A DNA stretch of 64,000 bases from Eledone cirrhosa (taxonomy: Eukaryota), in contig OZ024740.1 of assembly GCA_964016885.1 (NCBI GenBank), forward strand, positions 361,336,001-361,400,000. The letters run 5' to 3'. The first letter of the stretch is position 1, and each line of letters opens with the position of its first letter. Shown piece by piece: positions 12,809 to 63,733 of the stretch. Both the position numbers and the translations under genes were made by a program. The notes under the pieces were generated by a model. That model was given only the letters and a program-made list of their open reading frames with translations. It had not been told where the DNA came from and made no database searches.

Positions 12809-12980
12809 CTAAGTTAATCACCGTTTCTTTAAGAAAGGATGTTGGATCTGACAAAGAATCAGCAAAAGTACCGATGTCCATTAAGTCACCTTTCGTTGGA
12901 TACATGTCCGGTTTTTCTGCGGCCCACGAGACGAGTCCGGAATCGTTCAGTTCCATATCCATGCTTCTCTCTGTTATCAT
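12809..12980 (-). CDS. ATF4: ATF4 first coding segment (exon 2 spans 12809-13033); full CDS ~340 aa
   Basis: ttgcag| acceptor at 13033; MITERSMDMELNDSGLVSW...TVINL G|gtaagt. The phase-1 junction joins in frame to exon 3 (172+851=1023 nt). Confidence 0.85.
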
Positions 12981-17644: not shown

Positions 17645-17741
17645 TATGCAAAGGTAAACTTCGCAACTGGAAAGTTGCAACAGGGAAATTAGTGAGACAT
17701 TTTTCAGATAAACTTGTTTAGGAAATTGTAGGTGACTAAAT
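17640..17741 (-). other. ATF4: ATF4 exon 1 (5' leader) with uORF1 (ATG TCT CAC TAA, 17700-17689) and the uORF2 start
   Basis: Inr-like TCATTT (A at 17741) ~30 nt below TATATAAA; donor GGC|GTAAGT at 17640; alternative donor ATG|GTAAGA at 17589. Confidence 0.75.
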
Positions 17742-17764
17742 GATAAGATTATTGCGACTTCTAA

Positions 17765-18049
17765 TTTATATAGCCAGATCCACACATTTCATATATTGAA
17801 AAGTTCTATAAAAGACAACAAAAATTGTAAAAAATATACATAATTGATAATAATAATTCACAAATAACGATAAAAGAAATACTTTTTAATCATGTAATAG
17901 GGCAATATACTTAGAACTATGTTTTCTTAGCGTATTTATATCTAAATAGTTCGGTATTCATGAGAGATTGATCATTTACACGGGCTGATGCAATACTTCC
18001 TTTATTTTGATTGGTCAATTCGTGCCTCACCCAAAAAAGAATTTCGTCA
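17765..18049 (-). promoter_or_regulatory. ATF4 promoter: TATA box, C/EBP-ATF composite site, CCAAT box, CRE half-site
   Basis: TATATAAA 17772-17765; TGATGCAAT 17986-17994; CCAATC(-) 18014-18009; TGACG(-) 18049-18045. Confidence 0.7.
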
Positions 18050-18079
18050 AATACATTCTTCTGTCTGTCTATCTGTGTG

Positions 18080-18145
<66 letters not shown>

Positions 18146-18608
18146 AATGAGAGGTATAGAGATTGTTTTAGCGAGAAGCTAACAGCATTCTATAACATAA
18201 TATATATATATATATATATACGCGATATGTATAAGATATTCTCACTCTCTCTCTCTCTATATATATTTACTTCTCTGAATAAGATATTTTAACAATCTAT
18301 TTTCATTGAGATGTGTATATTTGTGACAAATTTTATAATATGTATAAATATATACATATACATAGTGGTAGTAAAAAACTCAGAAGACCTCCCACCACCA
18401 CCACTCAAGCGAGTGTTTCGGTCCTTAACTTATACTATAAATAAAGTTTATTACACTTAATATGTATGTCTGACCATTGGTTTCGGGTTCGATTTATGAC
18501 ATTCGGACAAAAATACACACTTCAACAGCATCCTAATAAATATTGCCTGTAATCAAAGTGTATACATTTTGGGGGACACCCTTTATATATATATACATAT
18601 ATATAAAT

Positions 18609-18688
<80 letters not shown>

Positions 18689-18732
18689 TAACAACAAAGA
18701 GCGCTTAGAACATAGGTATATCTTTGTTGTTA

Positions 18733-18782
<50 letters not shown>

Positions 18783-18822
18783 TAACAACAAAGAGCGCTT
18801 AGAACATAGGTATATCTTTAAT

Positions 18823-18868
18823 TGCTAACAGTGTTTCGTCCACACTAGAAGTGGGACTCTTCAGAGCA
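18823..18868 (-). ncRNA. Type I hammerhead ribozyme
   Basis: TGCT-CTGAAGA-GTCC CACT tct AGTG t GGAC-GAAAC act GTT-AGCA; next to a duplicated ~45-bp end motif and (TA)n. Confidence 0.7.
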
Positions 18869-21391: not shown

Positions 21392-21420
<29 letters not shown>

Positions 21421-21426
<6 letters not shown>

Positions 21427-21972
21427 CAAATAACGAAACGAAATTAAATTTCGTTTCGTTTGTAACTCACTTTTGTATACATATGTGGATGTACATTTTT
21501 AACTTAATTGTTTAAGCGTCAGTCATACAAAAGTGAGTTACAAACGAAACGAAATTTAATTTCGTTTCGTTATTTGTTTTTATCGTCTCCGTTGATCCGG
21601 TACGTACTCACACTCTATGCAAATTAGTCTGCCCACTACTAATTTTCATAGAAAAAGCATATAACGATATGTGCTTTTACGATTCTCTAGAAAGGCCGGG
21701 AGATAGGTAAATATTGCTGATGAGTTGTAACAACAACGAAACTAGTTCAATATTCCTTGTCTGGCTTTCTGGAGAATAGAGGAAAGGTGTTTCCTCAAAA
21801 ACCAGTATGACTCTAAAAACCGGTTTGTCTGTGTGTTTACATACAGAATAGCTGGACACTCACAGTAAAGTGACCAGTGAAAAAATCGGTACATCTACAT
21901 ATGTATACGTGTGTGTATTCATATGCATACTAGTATTTCAGTATACATATGTGGATGTACATTTTTAACTTA

Positions 21973-21977
<5 letters not shown>
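21421..21977 (+). mobile_element. Non-coding hammerhead element A (retrozyme-like): 466-bp unit + 37-bp terminal redundancy + inverted 5' piece
   Basis: Direct repeats 21475-21511 / 21941-21977; inverted repeat 21421-21478 / 21525-21582; ATGCAAAT at 21617-21624; flanked by (TA)n. Confidence 0.75.
21710..21754 (+). ncRNA. Type I hammerhead ribozyme (minimal stem III)
   Basis: AATATTG-CTGATGA-GTTGT aaca ACAAC-GAAAC TA GTT-CAATATT; perfect 7-bp stem I and 5-bp stem II. Confidence 0.88.
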
Positions 21978-27130: not shown

Positions 27131-27252
27131 ACGATCTGAGTTCAAATCCCGCCGAGGTTGACTTTGCCTTTCATCCTTACGGGGTCGATAAAATAAAGTA
27201 CCAGTAATACACTGGGTAATTGCTGGCCTTGTGCCTAAAGTAGAAACAATTA
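27131..27252 (+). mobile_element. 5'-truncated family A SINE inserted in Gypsy RT
   Basis: 122-bp match to family A; removing it restores the pol frame (...[17 protein letters not shown]...). Confidence 0.9.
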
Positions 27253-28346
27253 TATCTCTGTAAACGACGAAATACGAGATCCAGATGCTTTGAATGCTGC
27301 TGCGGGGAAGAACTAGCAATCAACACGTCATCGATATACGTGTACACAAAATCCAGGCCCCGAGTAATATCATCCATAAATCGTTGGAAGGTACTTGCAG
27401 CATTTCTAAGGCCGAAAGGCATAGTGAGGAACTCGAATGATCCGAAAGGAGTGGCAATAGCAGTCTTTGGGATATCCTCCTTGTTAACCGGAATTTGATT
27501 ATAAGCGCGGATCAAATCAAGCTTAGAAAAGATTCTGCAACCCTGCAATGACGATGCAAAATCCTGCAAATGCGGGATTGGATAACGGTCAGGCACAGTA
27601 ATCGCGTTTAAGCGTCGGTAGTCACCCGTCGGTCTCCAATCCCCAGAAGATCTAGGTACCATATGTAGAGGCGATGCCCAAGGACTTGTGGAGCGCCGAA
27701 TTATTCCCAATTCCAGCATGTGGTCGAATTCAAGACGTGCAGCTTTCAACTTCTCTGTAGATAATCTTCGAGGACATGAGAAAACAGGTGGACCTGTAGT
27801 GGATATGAAGTGTTCAATCGCATGATCCGGGCTAGTTATTCGTAACTTTCCTTGCGTCAACTGAGGGAATGAATGTAACAGGCTTTGATACTGGTTGCCC
27901 ACTTCAGCCAAGAAAAAGGAAGGGCTGACAGTGGCGACGTCCGGCTCTGAACCCTCGAAAGAAAGGCCTGTTTTAGCATCAACAAGGCGTTGTCTGCGAA
28001 TGTCCACCAACAAGGAAAAATGGTGGAGAAAATCCGCTCCCAAAATGGCGTATGGCAAGTCGGCGATAGTAAACTTCCACTTCAAATCACGCCGCAAATT
28101 TTTTAACCGAAGAGGAAGCGAAATTTGCCCATACGTTCGAATGGCCGTGTGGTTGACTGCTCGTAGATTTATATTTGCTTCGGCTGGGCTTTTTTTGAGA
28201 TAACTGACTGGCCAAATACTCAGCGACGCGCCAGTATCGACAAGGAAAAATTTTTTTGACCACAGGTCGTATACGAAAAGATGGCGGTTCGGTCGGTTTT
28301 CCCAGAGTTCACTAGCCGCTCCTAGTGGCTCTGCTTTGCGTTTCCC
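27253..28346 (-). CDS. Gypsy pol 5' part: protease and RT (-1 frame relative to gag)
   Basis: [41 protein letters not shown]. Confidence 0.93.
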
Positions 28347-29107
28347 GATCTCTTGTAATCACAGGGCGTGCGACAACGTTGCGCCCTACTGCCGAAGTTA
28401 GCATGATACCAACACAACGAAGAATTATTGTTGTCTGCGTTGTAGTGCTGGCGATGAATAGAGGACGGCGGCGAACGATACCTCAAACGTTGAGAAGGCT
28501 CTCTGTGATGTACCGTCAAATCTTCTACCTTTTTGGTGAGAGCTTCAATCAACTCCAACAGTTTGCCGTCGGCCACAGAAGAACTGCGTGGAGGGACGCA
28601 AGTTGAAGCCACATAAGGATTATGCTGATTGCTGTTCGAGTCCACCTCAAGTATCTTATCCGCGGACGCGGCAAGTTGCTCTAATGAATCCTTCTCTAAA
28701 CTATTGACCAATATCCTTTGCGCACTTGGTGGTAGACGTGAGAAAAAAAGTTGCTTTATGAAGGGGGTGTCAATCCCCTGGGAGTCGCTCAACTCCCGCA
28801 AATGTCGCAAATAGGAGCTCGGCTTCCTGTCACCCATTTGAGCATCGTCCAACAACTCCCGAAAACGGCTCTCTACCGACTTGGTATTTCTGCGAAGAAT
28901 TTCTTTTTTTAATGAGCCGTAGGTAACGTCGGCGTCTAAATCCGTCACAACGTCCTTCACCGAGAATGCCAAGGAAACAGGTAGGCCATTGATCAGGACC
29001 TTCAGCTTATGCTGTTCCTTTGTCTTCGTCAATTCAAAGAAACATTCCAGCTGCGCAAACCACAACTTGATGTCGCCTGCGAAGGAGGGCAAGTGATGTT
29101 GACTCAT
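28322..29107 (-). CDS. Gypsy gag (261 aa)
   Basis: [10 protein letters not shown]...[12 protein letters not shown]...[18 protein letters not shown]. Confidence 0.92.
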
Positions 29108-30062
29108 GGTGCCACGTATTTGATGACTTTTTGGTGTTGGTCAATAGTTAGCCAGGTGTTGCTGCTGATTGCTGGTAATTGGTGGTAGCCGTTTTGAAAT
29201 ACTGCTAATTTTTTTTCTTTAAAAAAAAAATATTCTAAAGAAAATTTTAATAATAAAAAAAATCATTTTCTATGAAAATTAATGGTAAGAATATCCAAGA
29301 TGGCTGATTTAAAAATGTGTCCGTGATGAAGAAGCCGTCATGTGGCACGATGCAGCCAATCAGATGGCTGGGATTGGAGAAGACAAGCTGAACGCGGGAA
29401 AACGAAATATCTCCATTTGTAATTTCCACAGAATGTTGGAAGCAAAATTCTATATCCAGAGAAATCCTTTATTTTTTTTATTTTTTTATTTTTGTGTGTT
29501 GTATTTTTGTGTTTGTCTGTATGCGTGCTACAACAAATGGAATATAATGAATTTTATGGACTTACGCTAAGTGATTCGGACATTCCAAATGTTAAGCCAT
29601 TCCACATTGCCGTTAAAAAGAATTTCGGACTCCAATAGGCTGCGTTTTCATTCTTTATCGCCAGGGTCGCCAATAAAGGAAAGGGATGTTTCTCTTTGTC
29701 GAATAAATAAATGAACAATCAAGTCTAACAATCATTTTATTTAATGCAATAATTTAGTAAATTTCCTACAACGTCAATATTTTGAGGAGCGGATCTTTCC
29801 ACGTCTGTTCATGTCCGTGGTCCAAAAAGAGTGAGTGAACCTGTGGCTGTGTCCGGGTGTATTTTTGCCTCCGCTCCCTGAAGGGTTAAGGGGAGGCAAC
29901 TGCTAGTTGCCAAGCGACCATCTCAGCCACTACATATGTATACAGACGTACAGTAGTATGTATAACGGCGGCGAAGATTCGAAACCGAATCTGAGCTTTC
30001 CCGCCTCTGGGACAAGCCGTGGTAAGTTGTTTACGCTCAAGAGACTAACCCCTTGGGAGAGG

Positions 30063-31889: not shown

Positions 31890-32760
31890 AGCGAAGAGAA
31901 GGTTTTAAATAAAGCATATAACAGTAACAAGCGATATACTGGGATTTTAGAATACACAAGATTATTTAGAACAGCCAGACAGAATTATAGAATAGCATTG
32001 AGAAAGTAGGATTGGATTCTGGGCGATTATACAGATATATGGAAGAATGAACCGAAGGGTGGGGAGACAAGAAGAAAATGGTGTTTTTACATTACATTTC
32101 GTAGAAGTGGACTGACCATTAATAAGAGTTGACAAATTCTGAGATTCGTACCTCGTAACAGGTTTATTTATATTTGGTGCGAGTAGGGAGTGATCGAGTG
32201 AGAGAGAGAGAGAGACCAACAGGCACGTATGTGATAAAGAGGGGGGGGGGGGGGCAGAGATTTAGAGGGACTAGGGAGGCCATTTTTATGAATCCTGGAA
32301 AATTTCGGCCAAAATTAAGATTAAGCGAGGAGAAGGTTTTAAATAAAGCATATAACAGTAACAAGCGATATACTGGGATTTTAAAATACACAAGATTATT
32401 TAGAACAGCCAGACAGAATTATAGAATAGCATTGAGAAAGTAGGATTGGATTCTGGGCAAGTAGGATTGGATACAGATTTATGAATAAAATTCTTTTCTT
32501 TGATTTTTCTCTTGATTTCACTTGGCCTGTGTAATTTGTAGAATGGAAATATTATAAATATTTTCTGACCACATGTTGCTAGATGGTTACTCAGGGGTAT
32601 CTGACGGACATTTGGGTCTCTGATTTTCTGTCGGTGCACCCGTGCACGTTCCGATAGTGCATTTCCAGTTTGACCGACATATAGTTCTTCACAATTCGGG
32701 CATTTAATGCAGTAAATTAGATTTCTGCTTTTGCAGTTCATATTTGCATTTGGGAATATT
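31890..32760 (-). mobile_element. PLE 3' end (GIY-YIG with CCHH) plus pseudo-LTR repeat
   Basis: NLIYCIKCPNCEELYVGQTG...RARVH...HLATC; ~130-bp direct repeat ~31890-32022 / 32325-32458. Confidence 0.85.
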
Positions 32761-33265
32761 TTTCAAAATTCCAACCCAAGCTAAATGAATAATAATTCTT
32801 AGGGGTATAAAAACCCTAGAAAATGCTATTTTCATCATTTCTAAAAATAGCAAAACAATTGATGCTTTGAATAGGGCCAAATAGAAGTCGTTAGACATGC
32901 CCAACCAACCGTAATGCCTAAACCAATCACCTTCAGTAATCCAGTGAAACTACACACCGATTGGTCGAAATACAGTTTGCAAAATTTAGCATTCTGTAGC
33001 CGCTTTTCACTGTATATAAGGCACAACATTTACCCATCTCATTACAGTTGAAAATTGTAAACTTGACTGTCACCACAGAATATGAACCTGAAGATTGCGA
33101 AAACATGAAATTACTTGTTCAATTAACACTTAATATTGTACCATGCTATTTCATTCTAATACCATTATAATTTTAAAGGATTGTAAATAAAACGAGTAAA
33201 TCAGACAAAGTTAGAATTCCTTTTATTAATATAATCTTCTATACACAATCATACACACCCGTGTA

Positions 33266-37659: not shown

Positions 37660-40600
37660 AAATAACACTTACCCTAACACTTGCACTCACACATGCTCTA
37701 ACAGTGAACTTAGTGCTAACATGAAAACTAACACAAACACAAAATCTGAAAACTAACATTAAATAGAAAACTAATACAAACACTAACCTGAACACTAACA
37801 CTAAAACTGACACTAACACTAACCTGAACATCAGCACTAAAACTAACACTACCGTAAACACTAATACAAACACTAACACTAACCTGAACACTTACACTAA
37901 AACTAACATTAGCACAAACATTAGCCTGAACACTAGCACTAAAACTAACACTACCATAAACACTAACACTGACTTGAGCACTAACACTAAAAGTAACACT
38001 AACACAAACACTAATCTGAAAACTGATACTAACCAGAAAACTAAGCTAACATTAACTTCAATACTAAAACAAACACTAATGCTAACAGAGATACTAACAC
38101 AAATATTAACACAAAAACAAACACTAACACAATCTCTAACACTAACCTCAACACTAACACTAAAACTAACATTAACTTGAACACTAACTCTAACCTGAAA
38201 ACTAAGCTAACATTAACCTGAACACTAACATAAACACTAACAGAAATACTAATGCTAACATTAACGCTAACCTTAACACAAAAACAAAGACTAACGCTAA
38301 CACAATCACTAACACTAATGGAAACATCAAACACTAATGCTAACAGAGATACTAACACAAATATTAACACAAAAACAAATACTAACACTAACACAATCTC
38401 TAACACTAACCTTAACACTAACATTAACTTGAACACTAACTCTAACCTGAACACTTACACTAAAACTAACACTAACAGATACTAACACAAATATTAACAC
38501 AAAAACAAACACTAACACAATCTCTAACACTAAAACTAACATTAACTTGAACGCTAACACTAACCTGAAAACTAAGCTAACATTAACCTGAACACTAACA
38601 CAAACACTCATGCTAACACTAACAGAAATACTAATGCTAACATTAACACAGAAACAAAGACTAACGCTAACACAATCACTAACACTAATGGAAACATCAA
38701 TCACTAATGCTAACAGAGATACTAACACAAATATTAACACAAAACAAACACTAACCGTAACACTAAAACTAACATTAACACTAACACTAACCTGAACACT
38801 TACACTAAAACTAACATTAACCTAAACACTAGCACTAAAACTAACACTACCATAAACAGTAACACAAACACTAACACTGATCTGAGCACTAACACTAACA
38901 CTACCATAAAAACTAACACAAAAAAACACTAACACTAACCTGAACACTAACACTAAAACTAACACGAAAACTGATACTAACCAGAAAACTAAGCTAACAT
39001 TAACCTCAACACTAAAACAAACACTAACATTAACAGAAAAACAAAGACTAGCACTAACACTAATGGAAACACTAACACAAACATTAACACAAAATAAAAC
39101 ACTAACGCTAATGGAAAAAATAACACTAACACTACCGTAAACACTAACATGAACACTAACACTAAAACTGACATTAACACGAACACTACCACTAAAACTA
39201 ACACTACCATAAACCACTAACCTGAGCACTAACACTAAAAGTAACACGAGCCCTAATCTGAAAACTAACATTAACTAGAAAACTAAGTCAACATTAACCT
39301 GAACACTAACACTAACCTGAACACAAACACTAACAAAAATGCTAGCACTAATACAAAATCAAACACTAACACGAACACTAATGGAAACACTAACACTAAC
39401 GCCAACGCTGACACTGACGAAGATGGCTATGCTGACACAAACGCTAGCGCAAATATTGACACAATCGCTTACGCTGACACAAACACTAACGTGAATACTG
39501 ATGCAGGTGCAAAGGCGAATGTTGACAAAGACTCTGACGCACACGCTGATGTAAATGCTACACAGACTCTAACGCTGACGTGGACACTGACACAAATGCT
39601 CACGCTGATGCAAACACTAAAGCAAAGGCAGACACTAATGCAAACACAGACGCAAATGTTGATTCAGATGTTAAAGCAAACGCAAATGCTGACGCAAACG
39701 ATGACAGCGATGCTAATGTGAACCTTAACGCAGACGTAAACATTGACGTAGAAGCTAAAGGAAACACTGATGCAAACACTAATGAAAATGCTGTGGCAGA
39801 CGCTGACACACGTTAACACAGATGCTAACGTAAACACTGACGCAGATGCTAATATAAACACTGACGCAGACGCTAACATAAACGCTGACATAGATGCTAA
39901 TACACGTAGACACAGACGCTAAAGTAAACGATGACACAGACGCTAATGTAAACGATGACATAGAAGCTAACGTAAACGCTGAACAGACGCAAATGTAAAC
40001 GCTGACGCTGATGTAGATGTAAATACAGACGCTGACGTAGAAGCTAACACAAACGCTGACACAGACACTAATGTAAGCGCTGACGTAGAAGCTAATGTAG
40101 ATGCTGACGTAGAAGCTAACGTAAACGATGACGTAGATGTTAACGTAGAAGCTGACGTAGATGCTGACGTAGAAGCTAACGTAGAAGCTAACAAAACGCT
40201 GACTAATTGTTAACGTAGAAGCAGGCGTAGAAATTAGCGTTTACCCTTACCGCCGAAGCTGATCTCCAAAACGCAATTGCTGAAGCCAAAGCTAATGCTG
40301 ACGCTGACTAAAATGTTGAGGCAGTTTTGCTGGCGCTGACGTGTATGCTGACGCTAACGCAAATGCTGATGCGGGCGCTAGGGCTAAGGCTAACGCTAAC
40401 GCAAATTCTGAAGTTATACGCTTACATGGGATATGCAGACGCTGCAATGATGCGGACACCACAGGAAAGGTTGATGGAAACGCCAATGCTAACGGAAAAC
40501 GCTGACGTAGACGTTACGGAAACGCTGACGTAGAAGCTAACGTAAATGCTGACACAGACGCTAACGTAAACACTGACGTTAACTGAAACGTTGACGCTGA

Positions 40601-41310
40601 TGTAGATGTAAATACTGACGCTGACACAGACGCGGTCGGAAACGCTGACGTAGAAGCTAACGGAAATGCTGACGTAGAAGCTAACGGAAACACTGACACA
40701 GACGCTAACGGAAATGCTGACAAAGATGTTAAAGGAAACACTGTCGCAAACGCTAATGCTAATGTGAATGCTGATGCTGTCGCAAATGCTAACCCCTACA
40801 CAAATGCAAACGCTGATGCTAACACTGACTCAAGCACTAATGCAAATGCTGACGTGCACGCTGATGCAAACGCTGACACTGAGGGAAATGCTGACACTGA
40901 CACAAGTGCTGACGCGGACGCTAATGATAATGCTGACTCAGAAGCTGACGTAGACGCAGGCACTGAAACAAACACTAATGTTGACTCAGACGCTTAGGGA
41001 AATGTTGACACAATCACTATCACCAATGCAGACGCTGACGCAAATGCTGACACTTACGCAAACACTAAGGCTAATCCAAACACTAACGCAGATGCTAACA
41101 CCAGTCTACATAGACACTAACACAAAAGCTTACATAAACGCTTATGCAAATGCTAACGCTGATGCAGACAGTAACGCAAACAGTAACTGTAAGAGTAACA
41201 GTTACAGTAATACTAACAGTGATGCTAACAGTAACACAGCCACTAACAATAAACTTACCATTAACAGTAAAACTTACCCTAACACTAACCCTAAATCTAA
41301 CATTAACCCA
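37660..41310. repeat. 3.6-kb degenerate hexamer satellite (ACTAAC to GCTGAC/GCTAAC)
   Basis: 6-nt periodicity throughout; produces spurious LTLT/ANAD ORFs. Confidence 0.9.
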
Positions 41311-41399
41311 GAGAAAAAAGTCATTTGCAATCACATTTAAGGTCACTCTTTAAGATATAAAAATAGGCATTACATTTTAATGATTTTAATTTAAAGAGA

Positions 41400-46178: not shown

Positions 46179-46470
46179 CTAGCCGAATTACCAGCGCCTT
46201 GCTGCGTTTCACACATTTTTTTTGTAAGAAAATGATGATTGATTTTAAATCAGTGATATAATTTATGGAGAAAAACTCAATATTACTCAATGTAAAATAT
46301 AATTCATCATAAATTGGAAAACATCAAAATTGCATTATTAAATCTTATTTTTATTTTGTTTCTTGTAAATAATTTTTTTCAAAATATCAATTGAAAACTT
46401 TTGTGTATAGGCATATCTTGTCATTTGCCTATGTTTTAAGTTTCATATAAATCGAAAGGGAAAAGTTTGA
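46179..46470 (-). mobile_element. Helitron-type 3' terminal segment
   Basis: Minus strand CAGC-AAGGC-GCTG hairpin + GTAATTCGG + CTAG|T at 46179, the same layout as the element at 319. Confidence 0.6.
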
Positions 46471-48713
46471 ATGGCGATGATGGTGATGGTGAAGATGATG
46501 CTGGTTCGGTACTTTTGCTTGAGTCATATGGACTATAGTTGTTGTTCTTTGTATGGCACGACTTAGATCGCTTAGCTTTTCCTTGAAATTTCTCTGGCTT
46601 TATGTGTGGAGTATTTGAGAACGATAAGGGAGAGCCAGGCTGAGATGAGAAGCTACTTGAAGGAGAACTAATATCAAAATTAGATGAGTCAAGACCTGAT
46701 GGGCTGCTAGCTGAGGATGAAAATGCATCTAAGCTGTCACTTTCACACTTCAGCAATTGCACATCGAGTACTTGAGACTCTTCTGTTGCTATGCCAGTAT
46801 TAAGTATGCTTTCTAAATCATTACATGATAATGGTGAAGACATAAGTACGTCACAGCGTTGGTAATCAAAGGGTGGAAATGTATTCATACCCTGGTCCAA
46901 TGGAAAAGAGTCAAGGAAAGCATCACCAATAGAAAACATATTTCTACCACTGTCATCGCCAACAGAGGCAGCAAATTCAGAGTGTAAAGTTTCTTTATTG
47001 GTGTGTGTTTCATCACAAAGAAATGTATCTGTAAAGAGAGAGAAAAGAGGTGTTTGAGTGCATATGTGTTATGGAGAATAAAAAAGTATTTTTATTCATA
47101 ATTGGAGAGGTGTTGGACAACTAATCATATAGTAATAAACAGAATCACTACTGATGTCTCTATGAATAATACCTACCTTTGTTCAAGAAACTTGTAACTC
47201 AGCACACCAAGCAGAATTTTGGGTTTTCTGCATTAGGGATTTTAACTAAACTATGTTCTTCATTTAACAGTTATAACATTTTATTATAGGTGGTACATTA
47301 ACTCTTTATTGAATGTACCAGAAACCCTATTAAGAATTTTGAGGGTTTTACTAAAATCATCATTTCATTACTAAGATATTAACATGGTTCTTATGTTGGA
47401 AGATTTTGATTTAAATGAGTGGTTTTGTTTCACAGAACCAAAGCCAGTTTTAACCATATATCTTGAGGCAAAGATACTTTCTGACGAAGAAATTTAATTA
47501 AAATTACTAAGAGCATTTTCGAGTTAATATTTTTCATAAAACGAATGAAATAAAGGAAACCACAGATGTGTAAGTAGACATGAATGCTTAAGAAATAATT
47601 TTATTATAAAATTTAATTTAATTTATAACAATATTTTCGAAGCTGTAAATCTTTGGTCATTTTAACAAAAATTATAGAAATAATATAAAACTAGAACATT
47701 TCGCTAACTTTTGTTAGGTGCACTGAAATACATTTAAGACGTAATAAGGACAAGCAGACAAATCAATTCTTCATCATTTTCATTCGATATGTGTGTATTA
47801 TTGAAGCCACTACTATTTTTGAGTTTCAATTTGTTTTTAAATTAGATAAATGGATTGACAGGTAGTTTGACTGATCGATAAATAATCAGTCTACAACTCG
47901 TTCTGAAATCTATAGCGGTATTCGATTTTTCTCATCAGGGAACTGTCTGATGTGTAAAATAACTATAAGAGAAATCATCATCATCGTCGTAATAATTCAC
48001 TTCTTTATTTTATCCCAGCCGACACAAATTGACTAGATCGAATGCTATCATCCCGGAAAGCATGAAAGACAAAGATGATCACAACGGAATTTGAACTCTT
48101 AACGAGGCTTTTCGCCCCTTCTAGTATGGTACAATGCTCTAATATTAATCATAACGATTTCTTTATTTATATTACAATAAAGTAATCGATTGTGGTATTG
48201 TAATTACTGAGTTGAAAGTAAACAGGAAGATAATCAATGAAGTAAATTTTTGATTTTGATAAATTCTTACCATTTGTTCTTAATAGAAACAATAGATAAA
48301 TATATATTAAAAAATACTTACGCCATTATGCAAAGGTAAACTTCGCAACTGGAAAGTTGCAACAGGGAAATTAGTGAGACATTTTTCAGATAAACTTGTT
48401 TAGGAAATTGTAGGTGGCTAAATGACAAGATTATTGCGACTTCTAATTTATATAGCCAGATCCACACATTTCATATATTGAAAAGTTCTATAAAAGACAA
48501 CAAAATTTGTAAAAAATATACATAATTGATAATAATAATTCACAAATAACGATAAAAGAAATACTTTTTAATCATGTAATAGGGCAATATACTTAGAACT
48601 ATGTTTTCTTAGCGTATTTATATCTAAATAGTTCGGGCTGATGCAATACTTCCTTTATTTTGATTGGTCAATTCGTGCCTCACCCAAAAAAGAATTTCGT
48701 CAAATACATTCTT

Positions 48714-48829
<116 letters not shown>

Positions 48830-48956
48830 TGTAGGAGGTGAGTTTTATTGTAGTACAATAAAGCAATGAAGATATCGGATAAGAAGCACTCTACAGCTTG
48901 TAGGACTGGAGTATACATAATATATAAAATCAAAAGATGGTTAAAAGAGTTCCATG

Positions 48957-49027
48957 TATTTTATTATGCGCATTTCAAAAACAAATATCATCATGCAATA
49001 ACATTTGTGTTTTCATCAGATAAAATA
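48957..49027 (-). ncRNA. Type I hammerhead ribozyme (mirror copy)
   Basis: Reverse complement of 49146-49216. Confidence 0.85.
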
Positions 49028-49145
49028 GGAAGACATGATATGAAGGTTAAAAAACACTTGTGAATAGTGCAGTTTTAAATCAACATATGTTGATTTAAAA
49101 CTGCACTATTCACAAGTGTTTTTTAACCTTCATATCATGTCTTCC

Positions 49146-49216
49146 TATTTTATCTGATGAAAACACAAATGTTATTGCATGATGATATTTGTTTTTGAAA
49201 TGCGCATAATAAAATA
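49146..49216 (+). ncRNA. Type I hammerhead ribozyme
   Basis: TATTTTAT-CTGATGA-AAACACAAAT...ATTTGTTTTT-GAAAT GCGC ATA-ATAAAATA; 8-bp stem I, palindromic GCGC loop. Confidence 0.85.
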
Positions 49217-49464
49217 CATGGAACTCTTTTAACCATCTTTTGATCTTATATATTATATATACGCGATATGTATAAGATATTCTCACTCTCTCTCTATATA
49301 TATATTTACTTCTCTGAATAAGATATTTTAACAATCTATTTTCATTGAGATGTGTATATTTGTGACAAATTTTAATTATGTATAATATGTATAAATATAT
49401 ACATATACATAGTGGTAGTAAAAAACTCAGACCTCCCACCACCACCATTCAAGCGAGTGTACCC

Positions 49465-49897
49465 ACTAAGAGTGAGAAATGAAATTTCGTTTCATTTTTT
49501 CCGTTTATAATTTTCGGTGCACCCGGCCGATTAACTCACTCGATATGCAAATTAGGCTGCTCAGCTGTTCAATCATCTGGCAGGAAGGTATATGTTGCTG
49601 ACGATAGCTAATAAGCTTGAAACTTGTACAGCGTTCCTTAGTCAGTGTTGAACAAATGAGCAACGATGGTTGCTAGACACTGTATGGCTTAATTCGGGAT
49701 GTTTGTTTACAAACACACCGAGCATTATAATAAATGTTCGGTGAATCCATACGTACATATATATATATGTGTGCATGTATGTATATATATACATACTACT
49801 GTACGTCTGTATACATATATGTATGTACGTATACATACTTATATTTAAGTAACAGCCGTACTAAGAGTGAGAAATGAAATTTCGTTTCATTTTTTCC

Positions 49898-49904
<7 letters not shown>
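49465..49904 (+). mobile_element. Non-coding hammerhead element B (retrozyme-like): 395-bp unit + 45-bp terminal redundancy
   Basis: Direct repeats 49465-49509 / 49860-49904; ATGCAAAT at 49545-49552; ends in (TA)n. Confidence 0.75.
49592..49634 (+). ncRNA. Type I hammerhead ribozyme (minimal stem III)
   Basis: ATGTTG-CTGACGA-tAGCT aata AGCTt-GAAAC TT GTA-CAGCGT. Confidence 0.78.
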
Positions 49905-49951
<47 letters not shown>

Positions 49952-50127
49952 CCAAAGATTAATATGGTTCGTTGATTACTCAACGAATACAATATTACAA
50001 TAGATTAGAAGCACCCAACTGCAGATTTTCCTGGAGTTTTTAATATTATTCAAAATGTTAATGAACTACTGCCAATACTGGAATTGAATAATCAAAACTG
50101 TAGCGGTATGTCACATATCAAATCATA

Positions 50128-54532: not shown

Positions 54533-55192
54533 AATCATACACCCTTATTTGCATGCGCACATATGTATTTTTATACTCACATACAAACACCCAAACATAC
54601 ATACCTACCTACATATACATACATACATCCACGCTTACAAATACAAATAATAATAGTAGGGGGGGAAGGGGGGGGGATTATAGTAAATATAGGTTTCAAG
54701 AAACATAGAATATTAATCTGCATTTAGATCATAATATGTGTTTACATAGTTTCAGTATTAGGAAATGTAAGAAAGAAGGCAAAATTATGCATTTCAATAT
54801 AAGTATACCATTAATTATAGGTTAACTAAACTAAAGATAGTTAATATATTGATTTCTAAGGTGTATACTACTTAGGTTTATAATATTTGAAGCAGAATTT
54901 TGAAGTTAAATAGTAGTAGAGTATTAATTATAGTATAACTAAATTAAAATTATTAACGTTATGGTATCAATATTAGGAAATGAATTTAGTAATAGGGAAA
55001 AAACAAATAAAGTATTACATCGGTAGTAGAATATAAATTATAGGTTAACTAAATTAAAAATTATATATTAATTTCTATAGTATATGTTAATTAGGTTTAT
55101 AATAATTAAAACAGATATTGTATTTTATCTATAGTAGAATATAATTATAGGTAAACAGAAATTAAAATTAATACATACACATATACATATAC

Positions 55193-55229
<37 letters not shown>

Positions 55230-57790
55230 CATATATATACATACATATACATATTTTTTCAAAAATTGCAAAGAATATATTAACTAGGTATACATCCAAA
55301 ACCTATCTCATTCTATGATTACATGACACTCTGCAATCCATCTGTATTAGGATACTAATTTTAAGCCAATTAAATTAAATTTTTAGGTTGACCAAATTTA
55401 AAACCAAATTATAAATATATTTCTAAAATGTACATTAATTAGGTCTATAATACTAAAAATTATTTCTCTGTCATTGAATACACGATATTTTGTTATATTT
55501 TATCTGTAAAGGAATTTTAATAAAAGGTTAAATAAATTAAAATTAATCTATAAATTAATTTACTAAGTATATATTAGAAATATTTAAAAGTTTTTCACAA
55601 TTTATGATTACACAATATTTTATAATCTCATCTGTAGTAGAATTTTAATTAAATTAAATTTATAGGTTAACTAACATTTAAATTAAATTATATATTAATT
55701 TCTAAAATAATGTTATTAATTAGGTTTATAATATTTAAATGTTTTTCTTAGTTTATGATTACACGATATAATTAATTCCTGTCGTTTATTTAATAGGATA
55801 TCCTTAGATTTCATTATTTCAAATAGTTCTTGGGAACATAATCTACATTCATTTCTATTATTTTGATAAGGGGTGGCTCTTTTGAGCACACTCCAGGTCA
55901 AATCATATTCTATATTCTTATTTTTATAACTATTGATTTTTTCTGCTAGAGATGTTGTATTAGCCAGTGCGGCATTTTAAAAAACTATGTTTGTGGGTAT
56001 TAAACCTTACCTTAAAATTGTTAGAAGTAGCTCCTATATATGAGCAAATAGAATCTTTAGTTTTAACATTACATTTATAAACTATGTTGTTAACAAGACA
56101 ATTTCCTTTTAATGGGCAGTTTGCTTTGTTTCTACAGTTACAACCTTTCGTTAATTCTGTATTTGAGGAGATATTATGGTTAGTTTGATGTATTGGTGGT
56201 ATACTTATGGTTTTCTTACATTTATATGCATTATAGGCACTTATATTTTGTTTTATGTTATTTGTTGTTGAGTATGAGAATTTAACTGTAGACCTATTTA
56301 AGATTTGATGGTATTTGTGGTTTGGCGGGAAGTTTTTCTCTAGGATATAAAAAAACTTTTTAGCAATATTATCCTTAATTTGTAAATTAAATGGAGCATT
56401 ATACCAAGTAACCCGTCTATTACGGTTTCTATGTTGTTTATTATTTTTATAGGTTGTATCATGATGTTTACTAGGAGGATTAATGTTAATGATCTCACCA
56501 CGCACATTTTTAGTTATATTTGTAGATTTAGGTGTTTTATCTTGTTTATTAGGAGTTTTATTATTAACATTTATTAGAGTTGTATGATGAGTAGTTTTTT
56601 GAGAGTTACTATACTTTATATTAGAAGATTTGGTATTTTGGGGTATAGTGTGGGTGGCATTTAGGTGTGTACTTTTCATTTGGTGTTTGTTGGTAATATT
56701 AGGTTGTATGTTTTTAGTATTTTTAGTAGAAGGTATATATTCTAATCTATTTTTGTGGCCACTTCTATCTAGAGCTTCGTTATAGAAGGTCGCATTTTTA
56801 TCAAATACATCTTGGTTAGAAGAAAAAATAAGAAAACACGTTATTTTACCACTCTGGGAAAACACTTCCCAGGTAATTAACTGGTTTAAAAATATTAGAT
56901 GTAAATCTTCTGCTTCATTTCTACAATTTGATATAGATAATTACTATTCTTCTATATCACCTATACTCCTGAACAAAGCATTGATATTTGCTAAAAATAG
57001 ATCTAACTTAACTTTGGATGACATTAATATTATTACACATGCTAGACTAACACTTATTGAATTTCAGAATGAATACTGGACCAGAAACACATATAGTAAT
57101 CTATTTGATATTACTATGGGTTCAAGCGATTCCGCCCAAATTACTGATCTTGTGGGCCTCTTTCTCCTTTTCAACATAAATGCCTCCTTTCCCCACCTTA
57201 AAGGTGGTTTATATCGTGATGACTGTCTTCTTCTTTCCAACAACCTTAGCCTTTCAGAAATAGAAAAAAAACAAAAAGCATATTAGAACTTTCCTTAAAG
57301 ACTATTATAGTCTTCATATTACTTTTGAAAAAACAAGTAAAGTAGTAAATTTCCTAGATATAACTTTAGACTTAGCTACGGGTATCTACCAACCTTACCA
57401 TAAACCCAACCAAAACTTACACTACATACACTCACAATCTAATCACCCTAAATCTATCCTTAAAAACCTTGCATATAATATATCACTTAGAATTTCTAAC
57501 CTTTCTTCTAACCAAGATGTATTTGATAAAAATGCGACCTTCTATAACGAAGCTCTAGATAGAAGTGGCCACAAAAATAGATTAGAATATATACCTTCTA
57601 CTAAAAATACTAAAAACATACAACCTAATATTACCAACAAACACCAAATGAAAAGTACACACCTAAATGCCAATACAGATGGATTGCAGAGTGTCATGTA
57701 ATCATAGAATGAGATAGGTTTTGGATGTATACCTAGTTAATATATTCTTTGCAATTTTTGAAAAAATATGTATATGTATGTATATATATG

Positions 57791-57827
<37 letters not shown>

Positions 57828-58652
57828 GTATATGTATATGTGTATGTATTAATTTTAATTTCTGTTTACCTATAATTATATTCTACTATAGATAAAATAC
57901 AATATCTGTTTTAATTATTATAAACCTAATTAACATATACTATAGAAATTAATATATAATTTTTAATTTAGTTAACCTATAATTTATATTCTACTACCGA
58001 TGTAATACTTTATTTGTTTTTTCCCTATTACTAAATTCATTTCCTAATATTGATACCATAACGTTAATAATTTTAATTTAGTTATACTATAATTAATACT
58101 CTACTACTATTTAACTTCAAAATTCTGCTTCAAATATTATAAACCTAAGTAGTATACACCTTAGAAATCAATATATTAACTATCTTTAGTTTAGTTAACC
58201 TATAATTAATGGTATACTTATATTGAAATGCATAATTTTGCCTTCTTTCTTACATTTCCTAATACTGAAACTATGTAAACACATATTATGATCTAAATGC
58301 AGATTAATATTCTATGTTTCTTGAAACCTATATTTACTATAATCCCCCCCCCCCCCTTCCCCCCCTACTATTATTATTTGTATTTGTAAGCGTGGATGTA
58401 TGTATGTATATGTAGGTAGGTATGTATGTTTGGGTGTTTGTATGTGAGTATAAAAATACATATGTGCGCATGCAAATAAGGGTGTATGATTAATTTTGAT
58501 AGTTTGTATAATTTTGTATAATTTTGTACATAGATCTGTTGAATATGCATGCCAATTCTAACACATATATATCCTAGAAACGATCGTTAAATAATGAACT
58601 TTTTTTGTTTAATATAAGGAACTGTTTCATTGTTTTATTCATTATTTTTTAA

Positions 58653-58691: not shown

Positions 58692-58724
58692 AAATGTGTG
58701 TAATCCTTGGTACAGTTAGGTATA

Positions 58725-59580
58725 TTAAGACAGGGGGGAAGAAAAAATGGCTTCACTTGTGCTTTCAACAAATTTATTTTCTTCACAAAATCCAAAAAGA
58801 ATTTTTTTCCGGATTAGAAAACAAATTTTTTCTTAAAAAAATTATTTTATAAATTAAGTTAGGTCTTAGGAGTTCTTGGTTAACGTAGGAGGTATTGTTT
58901 CGTTTTTAGAATGACCTTTCACGCTGAGGTGCGCTTGTCAAACTGATGTGTATGTGGTGTGTTGTTCTATATATAGGGATTTAACATGTCTGTGGTGTGG
59001 TGGGTTTTTTTTTTTTTTTTTCTTTTTAATTTTTTTTCTCCCCCTTTAATAAGTGTATGGGTGTAGGTGTGTTGAAAAAGTGTTAATAGCAGTAATGAGT
59101 TGAGACGGTGAGTAGGGTTGGGTGGGGAGAAATGTAGCAAGTGCGGCCTGCCCCGGTCATTCTCGAAAAATTCCTTTATTCAGGGGAAAAAGCTTTTAGT
59201 ATTCCTTTGTGTTGAGAATGGTCATAGGCACACCGCACCTGCCAAGTTTGTAAACAATTATTTTTTTCTGAAGAATTTTACTACGTCCATCCCAAAATTA
59301 GTCCTTTGTTCAACACACACATATGTGCGTATATACGTACATACACACACGGGCATATGTAGGAATATATAGGCACACACCATCAATCACGCACCCATGT
59401 ACATATACGTCCACATACATACACAAAAACATATAAAGACATATAAAAACACATATACACATACGTACACACACGAATATGTACTCATACCTCCACATGG
59501 GTATATATATATATACATACATACATATACATACATATACACACATAAAGATACATAACTAAATATACATATATACCCAT

Positions 59581-60449: not shown

Positions 60450-62908
60450 AACATACACATACATACATATATATATATACATATATATATACACACATAC
60501 ACACATATATATATATATATATACACACACATACAAACATACACACATCCATACATATATATACACACACACACATACACACACCCACATACATATATAC
60601 CCACACACATATATGTGTGTGTCTCATCGTTCACTCAGATATTCATGTGTATACATAAGAAGAGGGGGTAGTGAAATGGAATTTTACCTCCGAGTGTTAA
60701 TTCATTTTTTCGTGTTCAGTAGTGGTTTAAATTTTTCAATGAAGAATTCTTCTTTATATCTGCGGAAATGTTCGTTATCCGACCATATCTTGAAGAAAGG
60801 GAAGATTGTGAATTTTCCCTTCCCGCATGATGCAAAGTGTGCGCTACATGTGGTATTTCTGACTGTGGGGTCTTTAATTTGTTGTTTATGTACCCGGACT
60901 CTATCATGTAATCCCGTTCCGGTTTCCCCAATGTAATACTCTTTACACTGTGGACATGTTGCGCAATATATTAGGTTTTTCGTTTTGCAGTTCATGTTTG
61001 CATTGACCTTGAAATTATCATGGTTTTTGAAGGACAACTGTTTGCCCTCTTCGATGAGTTCACAGGTTCCACATCTAGGGTCCCCGCATTTCGTCACTTG
61101 CATTGATTCCATGTTGGTCGTAAATTTTGCCTTGGTAATTAGTTTTTTAAGGCTGGGTGCTTGGCGTCTGCTATAAATTATCTGTGTTTTTTAAGAGTGC
61201 ATTCATTTTGGTAGATTGCTGTAGAATCGGGAGATACTGCTTAGCAGTTTTCACAATGTTGATGTTCCCTGGGTTGTGAGTGATGACAAAAGAGATAGCA
61301 GGGTTTTCTTTTTTATGTTGTGGGTTTGGTTTTCTCAGTGTTGTTATTGGGATGTTCTTAGCCTTGGAGATGGCTGCGTTGATGAGTTTCATCGGGTATT
61401 CTTGTTTTTTAAGGAAGTTTTTCAGGTCACATAATCTTTTTTCTTGTAGTACGGGGTGTGTTGCTATAGTGCAGATGCGCCTTGCCATGTTGAAGGGAAT
61501 GTTCCTTTTCGTATGTGAGGGGTGTGCTGACCGGAAATTTAAGTATTGGTGTGTGTCAGTGGGTTTGCAAAATAGGTCCGTTATGATATTTTTCCCTTCT
61601 TTAATGATGAGGATATCTAGAAAGGGCAGTTCCTTTTCGTTACATTCCATAGTGAATTGTATAGCTTCATGAAGCCTGTTTAAAATCGAATAAAATTTTT
61701 GTAGGTCTGTTTGGCTTCTGTTCCAGAAGATGAAGCAGTCATCTAGGTAACGTTTCCAGTTTTTATTAATGTAGAAGGCGAAGTCGTGACTGAATGTTAT
61801 CTGTAGTTGGGAATATAATTTTTCCTCTAAGTGACCCATAACGAGCGTTGCATATGTAGGGGCCGCTTTGGTACCCATGGCTGTTCCTTTTATTTGTAGA
61901 TAAAGTTCGTTGTCAAAGAGGAAGTGGTTGTTTTCCAATACTAATTTAAGTCCTTCCAAGATGAATTCTTTGGGGAATCTTTCTGAAATGTGACTTGAGT
62001 GTTTTGTAATCCAGAAGTCCACAGCTTCAATCCCTAGGTCGTGTGGGATGTTAGTGTACAGGCTTATTACATCAAAACTGACGAGGATTGTATCCTGGTG
62101 TACTTTTTGGGGGATATAGTTAAGGAATTCCATATCATCTCTGATGTAGCTTGCAACTTTTTTACATAGGGGTTTGAGTATGATGTCTAATAGGTTGCTT
62201 AGACGTTGTGTGCTTGAGGCTGGGCCAGCAATAATGGGGCGTAATTTTAAGTGTGTCGGTTTTGGTGTTTCGATGTATGATGTATTTTTCCCTTTTATGT
62301 TGTTTTGGATTTCTATGGATTTGTGAATTTTTGGTAATCCATAGAAATTGCTGGTTTTCATTTCGAAGTTGGTTAGGTAATCTACTTCTTTCGGTGTTAG
62401 GTTGTTTTGGTACTTTGTTGTTAGTTTGCCTATTTGGTTCCTCGATTTCCTTTCTTCGTTTTTAGTGATTTTCCTGTAGAAGTTTTCGTCATTCAAGTGT
62501 GCTAGAACCATATCTTTGTAGTGGTTTGTGTCCATGATGACGATTGCTCCACCTTTGTCCGCTTCTTTTATCATTATTGAGGAATCCCTTTGTAGCTTGT
62601 TCAATGCTAGGGAAAAAAACCAAAAAAACCCCCCACCACACCACAGACATGCTAAATCCCTATATATAGAACAACACACCACATACACATCAGTTTGACA
62701 AGCGCACCTCAGCGTGAAAGGTCGTTCTAAAAACGAAACAATACCTCCTACGTTAACCAAGAACTCCTAAGACCTAACTTAATTTATAAAATAATTTTTT
62801 TTAAGAAAAATTTTTTTTTCTAATCCGGAAAAAAATTCTTTTTGGATTTTGTGAAGAAAATAAATTTGTTGAAAGCACAAGTGAAGCCATTTTTTCTCCC
62901 CCCCTGTC

Positions 62909-63000: not shown

Positions 63001-63733
63001 TAATAATAATAAATTTGAAGACTAAAATCCAAAGAGGGCTCGATATATAAGAACCGTAGAGCAAATATTTATTAAAATAACAGATTAAAGTTTAAGCAAA
63101 GAATCGCTGTTTTCACCCTTAACGGGATCTTCTGAAACTAAAAAAATAAATCTGTGAACGCAGAAATAAATATTTCGAAAAACGTTGCAACCGAAGGAAG
63201 ACAGGAAGACGATACTTTGGTTCGTGGAGATGTTCCCTGGCAATGAACGGAAAAAAATGAAGATAATACGTTATTATTTGGAGGGGTGAGAACAATTACA
63301 CGCAAAGACAAAACCACGTTTATGGTATAAAGGAAGTCGTAGACTAATATTCTATGTAGGTGGTTCGTGGAGACATTTCCTGTCAATGAACGGGAAAAAA
63401 AAGCGAAGATAATACGTCATTATGTGGAGCGCTGAGAACAATTACACGCATTATATAAATGAAATCGTAGACTAAAATTCTATTTAGGAAACCGAATGAT
63501 TCTCGGCTATAGAGTTAAGAATAATGTAAATACATTACAGATGTAATTGAAATCAACAATAATTAAATATATACATGCACGCATCCATATACGTACATAC
63601 ATATGCATACGCGAAAACACCCGCCATGGGTATGCATATACAAGCATGTACACAAAAACACGAGCACACATACAAAAACCCATGCAACACCTGTACCCAC
63701 ACACGTAAATGTATACACCAAATACACATAAAC

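What the first reader, a model, noticed from the sequence alone, without database searches (positions are those of the whole stretch)
49465..49904. Candidate retrozyme B: diverged relative conserving only the putative functional motifs
Seen: a 395-bp unit with 45-bp terminal redundancy, ending in (TA)n. It is otherwise poorly alignable to element A, yet keeps the same ordered motifs: GAAATGAAATTTCGTTTC palindrome, CCGG, ACTCAC, TATGCAAATTAG.CTGC, AGGTA.AT.TTG-CTGAnGA, GAAAC-NN-GT, then TTCCTT. Stems I and II differ in sequence but still pair. Inference: selection on promoter and ribozyme across a diverged family; the different start point fits circular permutation.
Basis: partly seen in the sequence, partly recalled or inferred. 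Interest (0 to 1): 0.78.

Follow-up and report, generated by a model that had tools for sequence, protein, structure and literature searches.

The report
Decayed cephalopod hammerhead retrozyme copy
This is one damaged copy of a very numerous non-coding repeat in a cephalopod genome that carries a hammerhead-shaped RNA motif predicted to cut itself, and it was likely pasted into a TA run by the enzymes of Penelope-type jumping genes, so it is a new member of a known kind (animal retrozymes) and not a new system.

Summary
The anatomy is real: a 395-bp unit, an exact 45-bp terminal repeat, a (TA)25 run, an octamer and a type I hammerhead with its predicted cut after A49628. A descriptor finds only A and B in the window, against 1 hit in 200 shuffled windows. 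B is not merely a motif-level relative of A: they align colinearly at 187 of 266 columns and through the AT-rich tail, and 6 of 7 changed stem pairs still pair. Public reads show B belongs to a very high-copy family whose copies often end at B's 3' register in (TA)n. This copy is decaying: it lacks about 29 nt next to the octamer and has seven private substitutions (four CpG transitions), one breaking the palindromic helix III. The U·U at the base of stem II is family-wide and has an axolotl precedent. Best reading: a solo non-LTR retrozyme copy, likely written by Penelope machinery. Cleavage, circles and promoter activity are untested; newt satellite 2 is the precedent for an internal promoter. 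B's left end abuts the breakpoint of a partial ATF4-locus duplication, so the 45-bp overlap may not be the original end.

The parts
49465..49904 (+). Element B: one 395-bp unit plus 45 bp (1.11 units), one hammerhead, no ORF of 120 aa or more; 36% GC
49465..49509 (+). Left copy of the 45-bp terminal redundancy; other family copies continue further upstream with the unit's own tail, so 49465 is not a fixed family end
   Evidence: 78 X1 contigs with such loose ends; X4 record 9 runs 64 nt of tail then 49465-49569
49476..49497 (+). Near-palindrome (16 of 18 nt self-complementary) that folds as a hairpin just inside the fixed 3' register; 16 of 18 identical in A
49544..49560 (+). Octamer block (ATGCAAAT at 49545-49552); 16 of 17 identical in A; candidate promoter element and 5' arm of an RNA hairpin
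49567..49569 (+). Site of a copy-specific deletion of about 29 nt (3-nt microhomology) that removes the 3' arm of the octamer hairpin and a second palindromic hairpin with a TATA-like centre
   Evidence: tables 5, 5c, 7; homologous hairpins in A
49577..49645 (+). Type I hammerhead: helix I 49592-49597/49629-49634 with a GUAU/UCC internal loop, core 49598-49604 and 49619-49622, stem II 49605-49618 (basal U-U, AAUA loop), 2-bp helix III 49622-49627
49626..49629 (+). Predicted cleavage triplet GUA; cut would fall between 49628 and 49629, 276 nt upstream of the element's right end
   Evidence: sequence and established hammerhead numbering; cleavage not tested
49625..49625 (+). Private substitution that breaks the 6-nt palindrome of helix III (about 99% of family reads carry the palindromic letter, as A does)
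   Evidence: X1 1,058,798 of 1,060,715 summed depth; X20 7774 of 7803 and 10605 of 10969 reads; self-duplex -4.8 kcal/mol in A, none in B
49745..49859 (+). AT/GT-rich self-complementary tail of the unit, homologous to the same part of A
49860..49904 (+). Right copy of the 45-bp repeat; its end is a recurrent family 3' end
   Evidence: 99 X1 contigs run into (TA)n at this register; A's inverted arm ends at the same register
49901..49950 (.). (TA)25 target microsatellite
49461..49464 (.). 4-nt filler between the end of a duplicated ATF4-locus segment and B's left end; no target-site duplication
46467..49460 (.). Partial duplicate of the ATF4 locus (11122-12109, 16775-18062, 18218-18416), 19 substitutions in 2440 aligned nt, ending 4 nt before B
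21420..21977 (+). Element A, the in-window relative: 466-bp unit, 37-bp direct redundancy, 59-bp inverted left arm, (TA)n on both sides, canonical hammerhead at 21699-21770

Best explanation
B is a single, decaying genomic copy of a very high-copy, non-coding repeat of about 424 nt that carries a type I hammerhead fold and likely moves as a non-LTR retrozyme: RNA from intact tandem copies is predicted to cut itself into units, likely circularises, and is likely reverse-transcribed into (TA)n runs by Penelope-type enzymes. Shown: the anatomy, the abundance, a recurrent 3' end at (TA)n that lies 276 nt from the predicted cut site, homology to A round the whole unit with compensatory stem changes, and lesions private to B. 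Inferred: (1) intact family members cleave, mostly as dimers through the palindromic helix III; (2) the template is a closed circle, because a copy with an intact ribozyme in its middle and overlapping ends cannot come from one cut linear unit without ligation or a template jump (about 0.6 for the circle); (3) a Penelope RT with GIY-YIG nuclease primes at the fixed site and stops or is truncated at a variable point; (4) after insertion this copy was methylated and decays neutrally, so it likely cuts poorly and cannot make unit-length RNA with only one ribozyme.
For: Descriptor: 2 real hits against 1 in 200 shuffled windows. A vs B: 7 of 11 helix I+II pairs changed, 6 stay canonical, 4 by changes on both sides, P about 0.02; slid controls give 0-1 such pairs. 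Family reads: 7,908 contigs of X1 and 33,934 of 12,467,656 reads of X19 laid on 581 nt. Position 49595 (T to A or G) tracks 49631 (G to T): 37/32% in X1, 95/93% and 39/43% in the two X20 mate classes. Ten of 11 core positions show no variant at 3% or more; variation falls on N7, loop 2 and stem pairs. The family helix III is palindromic, as described for metazoan type I hammerheads that work as dimers (PMC4209133); a U-U at the base of helix II with a 2-bp helix III occurs in axolotl HHR_Amex2, which cleaves 22% as monomer and better as dimer (PMC7229834). Recurrent end in (TA)n (99 X1 contigs; A's inverted arm); partial tandems, inverted arms, end extensions and microsatellite bias are described for Penelope-like elements. 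Penelope-type RT plus GIY-YIG frames lie in the same window. Four of 7 private substitutions are CpG transitions (Fisher P 0.004, crude).
Against: Nothing here shows cleavage, a circle or an RNA. B alone folds with helix I pairs at probability 0.02 and a 10 kcal/mol gap to its best fold, and scores 13.7 bits against HH9. Covariation rests on two sequences (35 of 500 shuffles reach it) and on marginal read frequencies that also reflect subfamily descent; in the two low-depth runs the frequencies do not match (X16 22/86%, X5 3/15%). Core invariance is weak by itself (1 of 11 core against 10 of 43 other positions variable), and G49603 has a variant in 842 of 9895 reads of one X20 class. No tandem array of this family was seen; continuity across the unit junction rests on one contig (X4 record 9) and one joint of 57 reads from 2 starts. 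No sequence link to the Penelope flanks in the window. No inverted arm and no target duplication at B; its left end may be a later breakpoint.
Confidence: 0.72

Rival explanations
1. Same element and same Penelope helper, but no circle: the overlap arises from an uncut multimeric transcript or from a template jump on a linear RNA, as proposed for Penelope pseudo-LTRs.
For: Partial tandems are typical of autonomous Penelope-like elements too. An overlap of 45 nt needs only one junction. The basal U-U and 2-bp helix III predict slow monomer cleavage, which leaves uncut multimers.
Against: Coral, mussel and axolotl retrozymes of this anatomy accumulate as circles. The unit folds far better than shuffles (z -6.0), though much of that is the AT-rich tail.
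Confidence: 0.14
2. B is a solo pseudo-LTR, the 5'-truncated 3' end of an autonomous Penelope element, and not an independent replicon.
For: Penelope pseudo-LTRs carry type I hammerheads and occur mostly as single truncated motifs; a 2026 preprint derives retrozymes from them.
Against: Family copies continue upstream into the unit's own tail and not into coding sequence. The ribozyme is of the canonical kind (6-bp helix I, loop-loop motif), not the minimal kind typical of metazoan pseudo-LTRs. No significant match to the flanks of the window's Penelope element: scores 31 and 27, reached by 16 and 153 of 300 shuffles.
Confidence: 0.07
3. A DNA-level repeat (satellite or foldback element) in which the hammerhead look is an inherited relic and not needed for spread.
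For: No activity shown; Rfam scores under the gathering threshold; B's best fold is not the hammerhead.
Against: All 11 core letters are kept between A and B at about 70% identity, with compensatory stem changes; one-sided fixed ends at (TA)n and no terminal inverted repeats.
Confidence: 0.04
4. This locus itself is kept by selection for the host, for example as a regulator near the duplicated ATF4 piece.
For: It abuts a partial duplicate of the ATF4 locus and retains the octamer.
Against: A 29-nt deletion and seven private substitutions, three in the ribozyme, with a CpG-decay pattern; the ATF4 duplicate lacks the first coding exon and the bZIP end.
Confidence: 0.03

Closest known systems
Metazoan non-LTR retrozymes of mussel, coral and axolotl (Cervera and de la Pena 2020, PMC7229834; parts 2-4 of 6 and passages read, supplement not readable)
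   Same: Non-coding unit of 150-450 bp, GC under 50%, canonical type I hammerhead, very many copies, coexisting with Penelope-like elements; mussel units are 350-390 bp; axolotl HHR_Amex2 has the same U-U at the base of helix II with a 2-bp helix III.
   Different: This copy is 1.11 units with one ribozyme, not a tandem; it has a fixed 3' end at (TA)n and an octamer block, neither mentioned in the parts read ('octamer' 0 occurrences); cephalopods are not mentioned in the main text.
Solo (monomer) non-LTR retrozymes (Li, Clavereau and Pollet 2026, 10.64898/2026.07.22.740005; part 1 of 5 and passages read)
   Same: Dispersed single units seen as offspring of active tandem copies; proposed Penelope dependence.
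   Different: No mollusc sampled ('mollus' 0 occurrences); they report homology to Penelope pseudo-LTRs in Xenopus, which was not found against this window's Penelope flanks.
Newt satellite 2 (Coats, Zhang and Epstein 1994; paper not held; title and one citing sentence seen in PMC2220036)
   Same: A hammerhead repeat of about 330 bp with an internal snRNA-type promoter; that this promoter includes an octamer is recalled, not read here.
   Different: Promoter activity was shown in the newt; here only a motif is seen, no proximal element was tested, and the motif doubles as a hairpin arm.
Penelope-like elements and their pseudo-LTR hammerheads (PMC4209133, parts 1-2 of 4; 10.1101/2021.04.23.441226, passages)
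   Same: Partial tandem, inverted arm (in A), end extension, microsatellite targets, palindromic helix III.
   Different: No RT or nuclease frame; canonical and not minimal hammerhead; G10.1-C11.1 is replaced by U-U in B's family.

Membership tests
non-LTR retrozyme | Canonical type I hammerhead (core, helices I-III, loop 1/loop 2 motifs) | tested here: met
   basal U-U has a precedent; Rfam score under gathering
non-LTR retrozyme | Unit of 150-450 bp, GC under 50%, no protein | tested here: met
   395 bp here, about 424 in the family; 36% GC; no frame of 120 aa or more over the element
non-LTR retrozyme | Many copies in the genome | tested here: met
   7,908 contigs of X1 and 33,934 reads of X19 laid; copy number not counted; runs are of 'organism A', not shown to be the window's own species
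non-LTR retrozyme | Tandem units, each with a ribozyme (active form) | tested here: inconclusive
   This copy has one ribozyme (the solo class). Family junction seen in one contig and one joint; no array could be looked for
non-LTR retrozyme | Self-cleavage | not testable with these tools
   needs an assay
non-LTR retrozyme | Expression as unit-length linear and circular RNA | not testable with these tools
   no run on record as RNA was offered
non-LTR retrozyme | Coexistence with Penelope-like elements | tested here: met
   RT at 61171-62766 and GIY-YIG at 60702-61190, minus strand; GIY-YIG piece at 32400-32762
non-LTR retrozyme | Target-site duplication longer than 4 bp, when present | tested here: inconclusive
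   longest shared word 5 nt, far from the junctions; left flank is rearranged
Penelope pseudo-LTR derivative | Sequence homology to the pseudo-LTR of an autonomous element | tested here: not met
   only two flanks of one in-window element tested; other Penelope families untested
Penelope-type insertion | Microsatellite target and partial tandem with fixed 3' end | tested here: met
Penelope-type insertion | Inverted 5' arm (frequent, not obligatory) | tested here: not met
   absent at B; present at A, 59 bp
newt satellite 2-type self-promoted repeat | Octamer inside the unit upstream of the ribozyme (feature recalled) | tested here: met
   49545-49552 and 21617-21624; 7 octamers in the window's two strands
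newt satellite 2-type self-promoted repeat | Proximal sequence element and promoter activity | not testable with these tools
   no host snRNA promoter to compare; no expression data

The most novel reading that the evidence does not exclude
Cephalopod retrozymes carry their own snRNA-type promoter inside each unit, written on one arm of an RNA hairpin: the octamer arm stays fixed between A and B's family while the opposite arm drifts and the mismatches move, and an octamer-to-TATA-like distance of 42-43 nt is kept. They would then be self-transcribing RNA circles with the same layout as newt satellite 2, across molluscs and vertebrates, and B would be a natural deletion mutant of that promoter.
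Probability: 0.3. Interest if true: 0.55.

Novelty: new member of a known kind. Interest (0 to 1): 0.3.

Why it matters
As a locus it is one dead copy among very many. As a family it extends non-LTR retrozymes to cephalopods, where I found only an Rfam count of 235 hammerheads in the giant squid genome paper and no paper describing a retrozyme (search 'retrozyme' + 'cephalopod'; unreadable supplements may list one). Its fixed end at (TA)n supports Penelope-driven mobilisation, which the papers read propose but do not show. How animal retrozymes are transcribed is open; the fixed octamer arm gives a direct test. The junction with a 7-kb-span ATF4 duplicate hints that such insertions may cause or mark local gene duplications.

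Tried and rejected
Whole-genome scan: no genome held. Collection scans found no family member: 69 metagenome loci matched a hammerhead-like motif; by eye most look like chance or protein-coding matches and about ten like unrelated hammerheads; best BLAST hits were 38-43 nt over the core only; 0 of the 69 loci had a same-strand octamer within 250 nt upstream, a poor control. Genome contigs 0; viral contigs 0. No RNA holder listed; runs X1 and X16 are of unrecorded kind, so their depth was not read as expression. Small shares in organisms B-O: three were laid (X4 9 contigs, X8 10, X5 8) and carry the same majority letters as organism A; real presence and cross-contamination cannot be told apart, so no host range is claimed. 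The paralogue at 18363-18416 was tested as an empty site and is not one: sequence beyond 18416 is unrelated to B's right flank. The 4.7-kb gap in the ATF4 duplicate is not a clean splice junction, and the copy keeps intron sequence, so it is not a processed pseudogene. Short matches of B to 59246-59316 and 63243-63261 were tested as Penelope end homology and rejected. miRNA-family hits over the AT-rich tail are low-complexity hairpin matches under gathering. The drop at 49550-49553 and the T49552 variant in RAD runs coincide with read ends and were treated as a library artefact. The pair list for A was mis-indexed and was redone. 49657 was dropped from the private changes because about 27% of X1 depth shares B's letter. 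No covariance model was built: only two full sequences were in hand. One search's tables are truncated (29 variant rows, 28 joints, 400 loose ends not shown); one search's variant table is complete.

Full report
Observation. 49465-49509 equals 49860-49904 exactly and extends on neither side, giving a 395-bp unit, and (TA)25 runs from 49901 to 49950. The octamer lies at 49545-49552, the hammerhead core at 49598-49604 and 49619-49622, and the triplet GUA at 49626-49628. A relaxed type I descriptor hits only this motif and element A in the window's two strands, against one hit in total in 200 block-shuffled windows. The bare CTGANGA word is not informative: 38 matches against 19.6 expected. Rfam is lukewarm: nothing at gathering level in the window, 37 bits for A and 13.7 bits for B against HH9.

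Host and setting. The window's ATF4 exon has cephalopod proteins as its best named hits, 55% to Octopus vulgaris and 54% to Argonauta, so the host is a cephalopod and, by inference from that distance, probably not an octopod. The window also holds Penelope-type RT and GIY-YIG frames. No genome is held.

Relation to A. The claim that only motifs are shared is wrong. B and A align colinearly: nhmmer E 3e-10, local score 91 against a best of 40 in 300 shuffles, 187 of 266 columns identical, including 71 of 105 downstream of the ribozyme, and the AT-rich tails align as well. All 11 core letters are kept. Of 11 pairs in helices I and II, 7 changed; 6 stay canonical, 4 through changes on both sides (P about 0.02). 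With two rows the shuffle control is reached by 35 of 500 shuffles, while slid controls give at most one such pair. A has a 466-bp unit, a 37-bp direct overlap, a 59-bp inverted left arm and (TA)n on both sides.

The family behind B. Of 21 runs listed I laid seven. On 49380-49960, 7,908 contigs of X1 and 33,934 of 12,467,656 reads of X19 were laid, with depth confined to the element (49742-49960 was skipped as repeat). The unique left flank had no depth in X1, so these runs are not shown to be the window's own species or individual. Ninety-nine X1 contigs run into (TA)n at the register of 49509/49904, and A's inverted arm ends at the same register: a recurrent 3' end, 276 nt downstream of the predicted cut. 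Upstream of 49465, 78 X1 contigs continue with the unit's own tail; because the right repeat was masked, only X4 record 9 (64 nt of tail, then 49465-49569) and one X19 joint (57 reads, 2 starts) show the junction running on into the body. So 49465 is not a family end.

B is damaged. Family reads carry about 29 more nt at 49567-49569. Near-fixed differences mark seven private substitutions: 49509, 49510, 49566, 49593, 49625, 49640, 49685. Four are CpG transitions (4 of 32 CpG sites against 3 of 245 others, Fisher P 0.004; 49509, a transversion inside a CpG, was counted with the others), the usual trace of methylation and neutral decay. Three hit the ribozyme: 49593 turns a Watson-Crick pair into a wobble, 49640 opens a distal pair, and 49625 destroys the palindrome of helix III, which about 99% of family reads and A keep; the A hexamer self-pairs at -4.8 kcal/mol, B's does not. 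Metazoan type I hammerheads with such a helix III are described as cutting as dimers (PMC4209133). In one search's complete table, 10 of 11 core positions have no variant at 3%, U49605 and U49618 are invariant, and 49595 tracks 49631 in the deep runs (37/32%, 95/93%, 39/43%) but not in two shallow ones. These figures are marginal frequencies, reflect subfamily descent and exclude reads under 80% identity, so they support but do not prove selection. The basal U-U is not decay; axolotl HHR_Amex2 has it and cleaves 22% as a monomer and better as a dimer (PMC7229834).

The octamer. The block 49544-49560 is identical in A at 16 of 17 nt, and 49545-49550 show no variant at 3%. Seven octamers occur in the window's 128 kb, so one within 150 nt upstream of a given motif has a chance of under 1%; A and B count as one event. 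In A the block is the 5' arm of a 14-bp hairpin followed by a second hairpin with a TATA-like apex (z -6.3). By eye, the letters that B lacks would form the matching 3' arm and second hairpin, and those letters vary among reads (tables 5c) while the octamer arm does not; the octamer-to-TATA-like distance is 43 nt in A and 42 by counting on the read letters. This asymmetry suggests a constraint on sequence beyond pairing, which could be a promoter or a protein site on the RNA. An internal snRNA-type promoter is reported for newt satellite 2 (citing sentence in PMC2220036; original not held; its octamer is recalled). Nothing here tests transcription.

The left junction. B's left flank is the end of a partial duplicate of the ATF4 locus: three blocks with 4 of 988, 13 of 1259 and 2 of 193 substitutions, missing 12110-16774 with the first coding exon, and stopping 4 nt before B. 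The paralogue is no empty site and there is no target duplication. Either the insertion and the duplication were one event (a template switch; I put it near 0.15-0.2) or a later rearrangement removed B's left part. In the second case the 45-bp overlap is a remnant and says nothing on where the enzyme stopped.

Mechanism. Shown: anatomy, abundance, recurrent end at (TA)n, homology and compensation with A, private lesions. Inferred: intact tandem copies are transcribed, cut as dimers, ligated to circles as shown for mussel and axolotl units, and copied by a Penelope RT primed in (TA)n at a fixed register. A copy with an unbroken ribozyme in its middle and overlapping ends needs a circle, an uncut multimer or a template jump; the data do not separate these. 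Partial tandems, inverted arms, end extensions and microsatellite bias are described for Penelope-like elements. No homology to the window's own Penelope flanks was found, so the helper is unidentified.

Known and new. This fits the non-LTR retrozymes (PMC7229834; preprint 10.64898/2026.07.22.740005), in the solo class. Searches found no paper describing one in cephalopods, only an Rfam count of 235 hammerheads in the giant squid; the supplement of PMC7229834 could not be read and two readable files of PMC4209133 name no cephalopod. Earlier scan notes (unchecked AI notes, no independent support) describe many such families in this genome, among them a 422-nt two-armed one with ends 59 nt apart, which matches B's family size and the position of A's second end when mapped on B (about 49845, by eye). 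Verdict: a real feature, a new member of a known kind, this copy decayed; interest 0.3.

Noticed in passing
46467-49460 versus 11122-18416: Partial duplicate of the ATF4 locus (0.8% substitutions), lacking 12110-16774 with the first coding exon and cut before the bZIP domain; its right end lies 4 nt from element B. Order of events unresolved.
   Followed up: partly
48911-49262: Perfect 176-bp inverted repeat with no spacer (99%), present in the duplicate but not in the original, at the (TG)n/(TA)n tract; insertion or assembly foldback not decided.
   Followed up: no
18643-18864: Another element in (TA)n with direct and inverted 83-bp pieces and a hammerhead-like core on the minus strand at 18833-18864 (long stem II); it did not pass the 5-bp helix I descriptor.
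   Followed up: no
60702-62766 (minus) and 58720-59021: Penelope-like element (RT, Cys-rich linker, GIY-YIG) with an inverted copy of its 5' part nearby; a degenerate minimal hammerhead-like stretch near 63100-63150 on the minus strand.
   Followed up: partly
55960-57701: Second Penelope-like RT fragment with a 695-bp inverted repeat around it (54659-55353 / 57667-58361); no Pfam hit at E 0.001, assignment from recalled motifs.
   Followed up: no
25090-29140 (minus): Ty3/gypsy-like gag-pol frames (protease, RT, RNase H, integrase motifs by eye), broken into three frames.
   Followed up: no
37700-41340: Long degenerate 6/12-nt repeat array with frames rich in Asn-Thr and Ala-Asp-Ala-Asn; coding or satellite not tested.
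   Followed up: no
32 reads over 49575-49660: At least one more subfamily, common in the RAD runs, with linked changes at 49584-49586, 49591, 49595, 49602, 49612, 49631 and 49639, and a shorter variant that skips from 49685 to the unit's tail.
   Followed up: partly
L040, L049, L004, L007, L012, L027, L036, L060: Unrelated hammerhead-like motifs with the same palindromic helix III in metagenome contigs; L040 has two identical copies 592 nt apart, like a retrozyme dimer.
   Followed up: no
46180-46466: The left junction of the ATF4 duplicate interrupts a 290-nt AT-rich piece that begins at a (TA)n run and recalls a Helitron-type end (recalled resemblance, untested).
   Followed up: no
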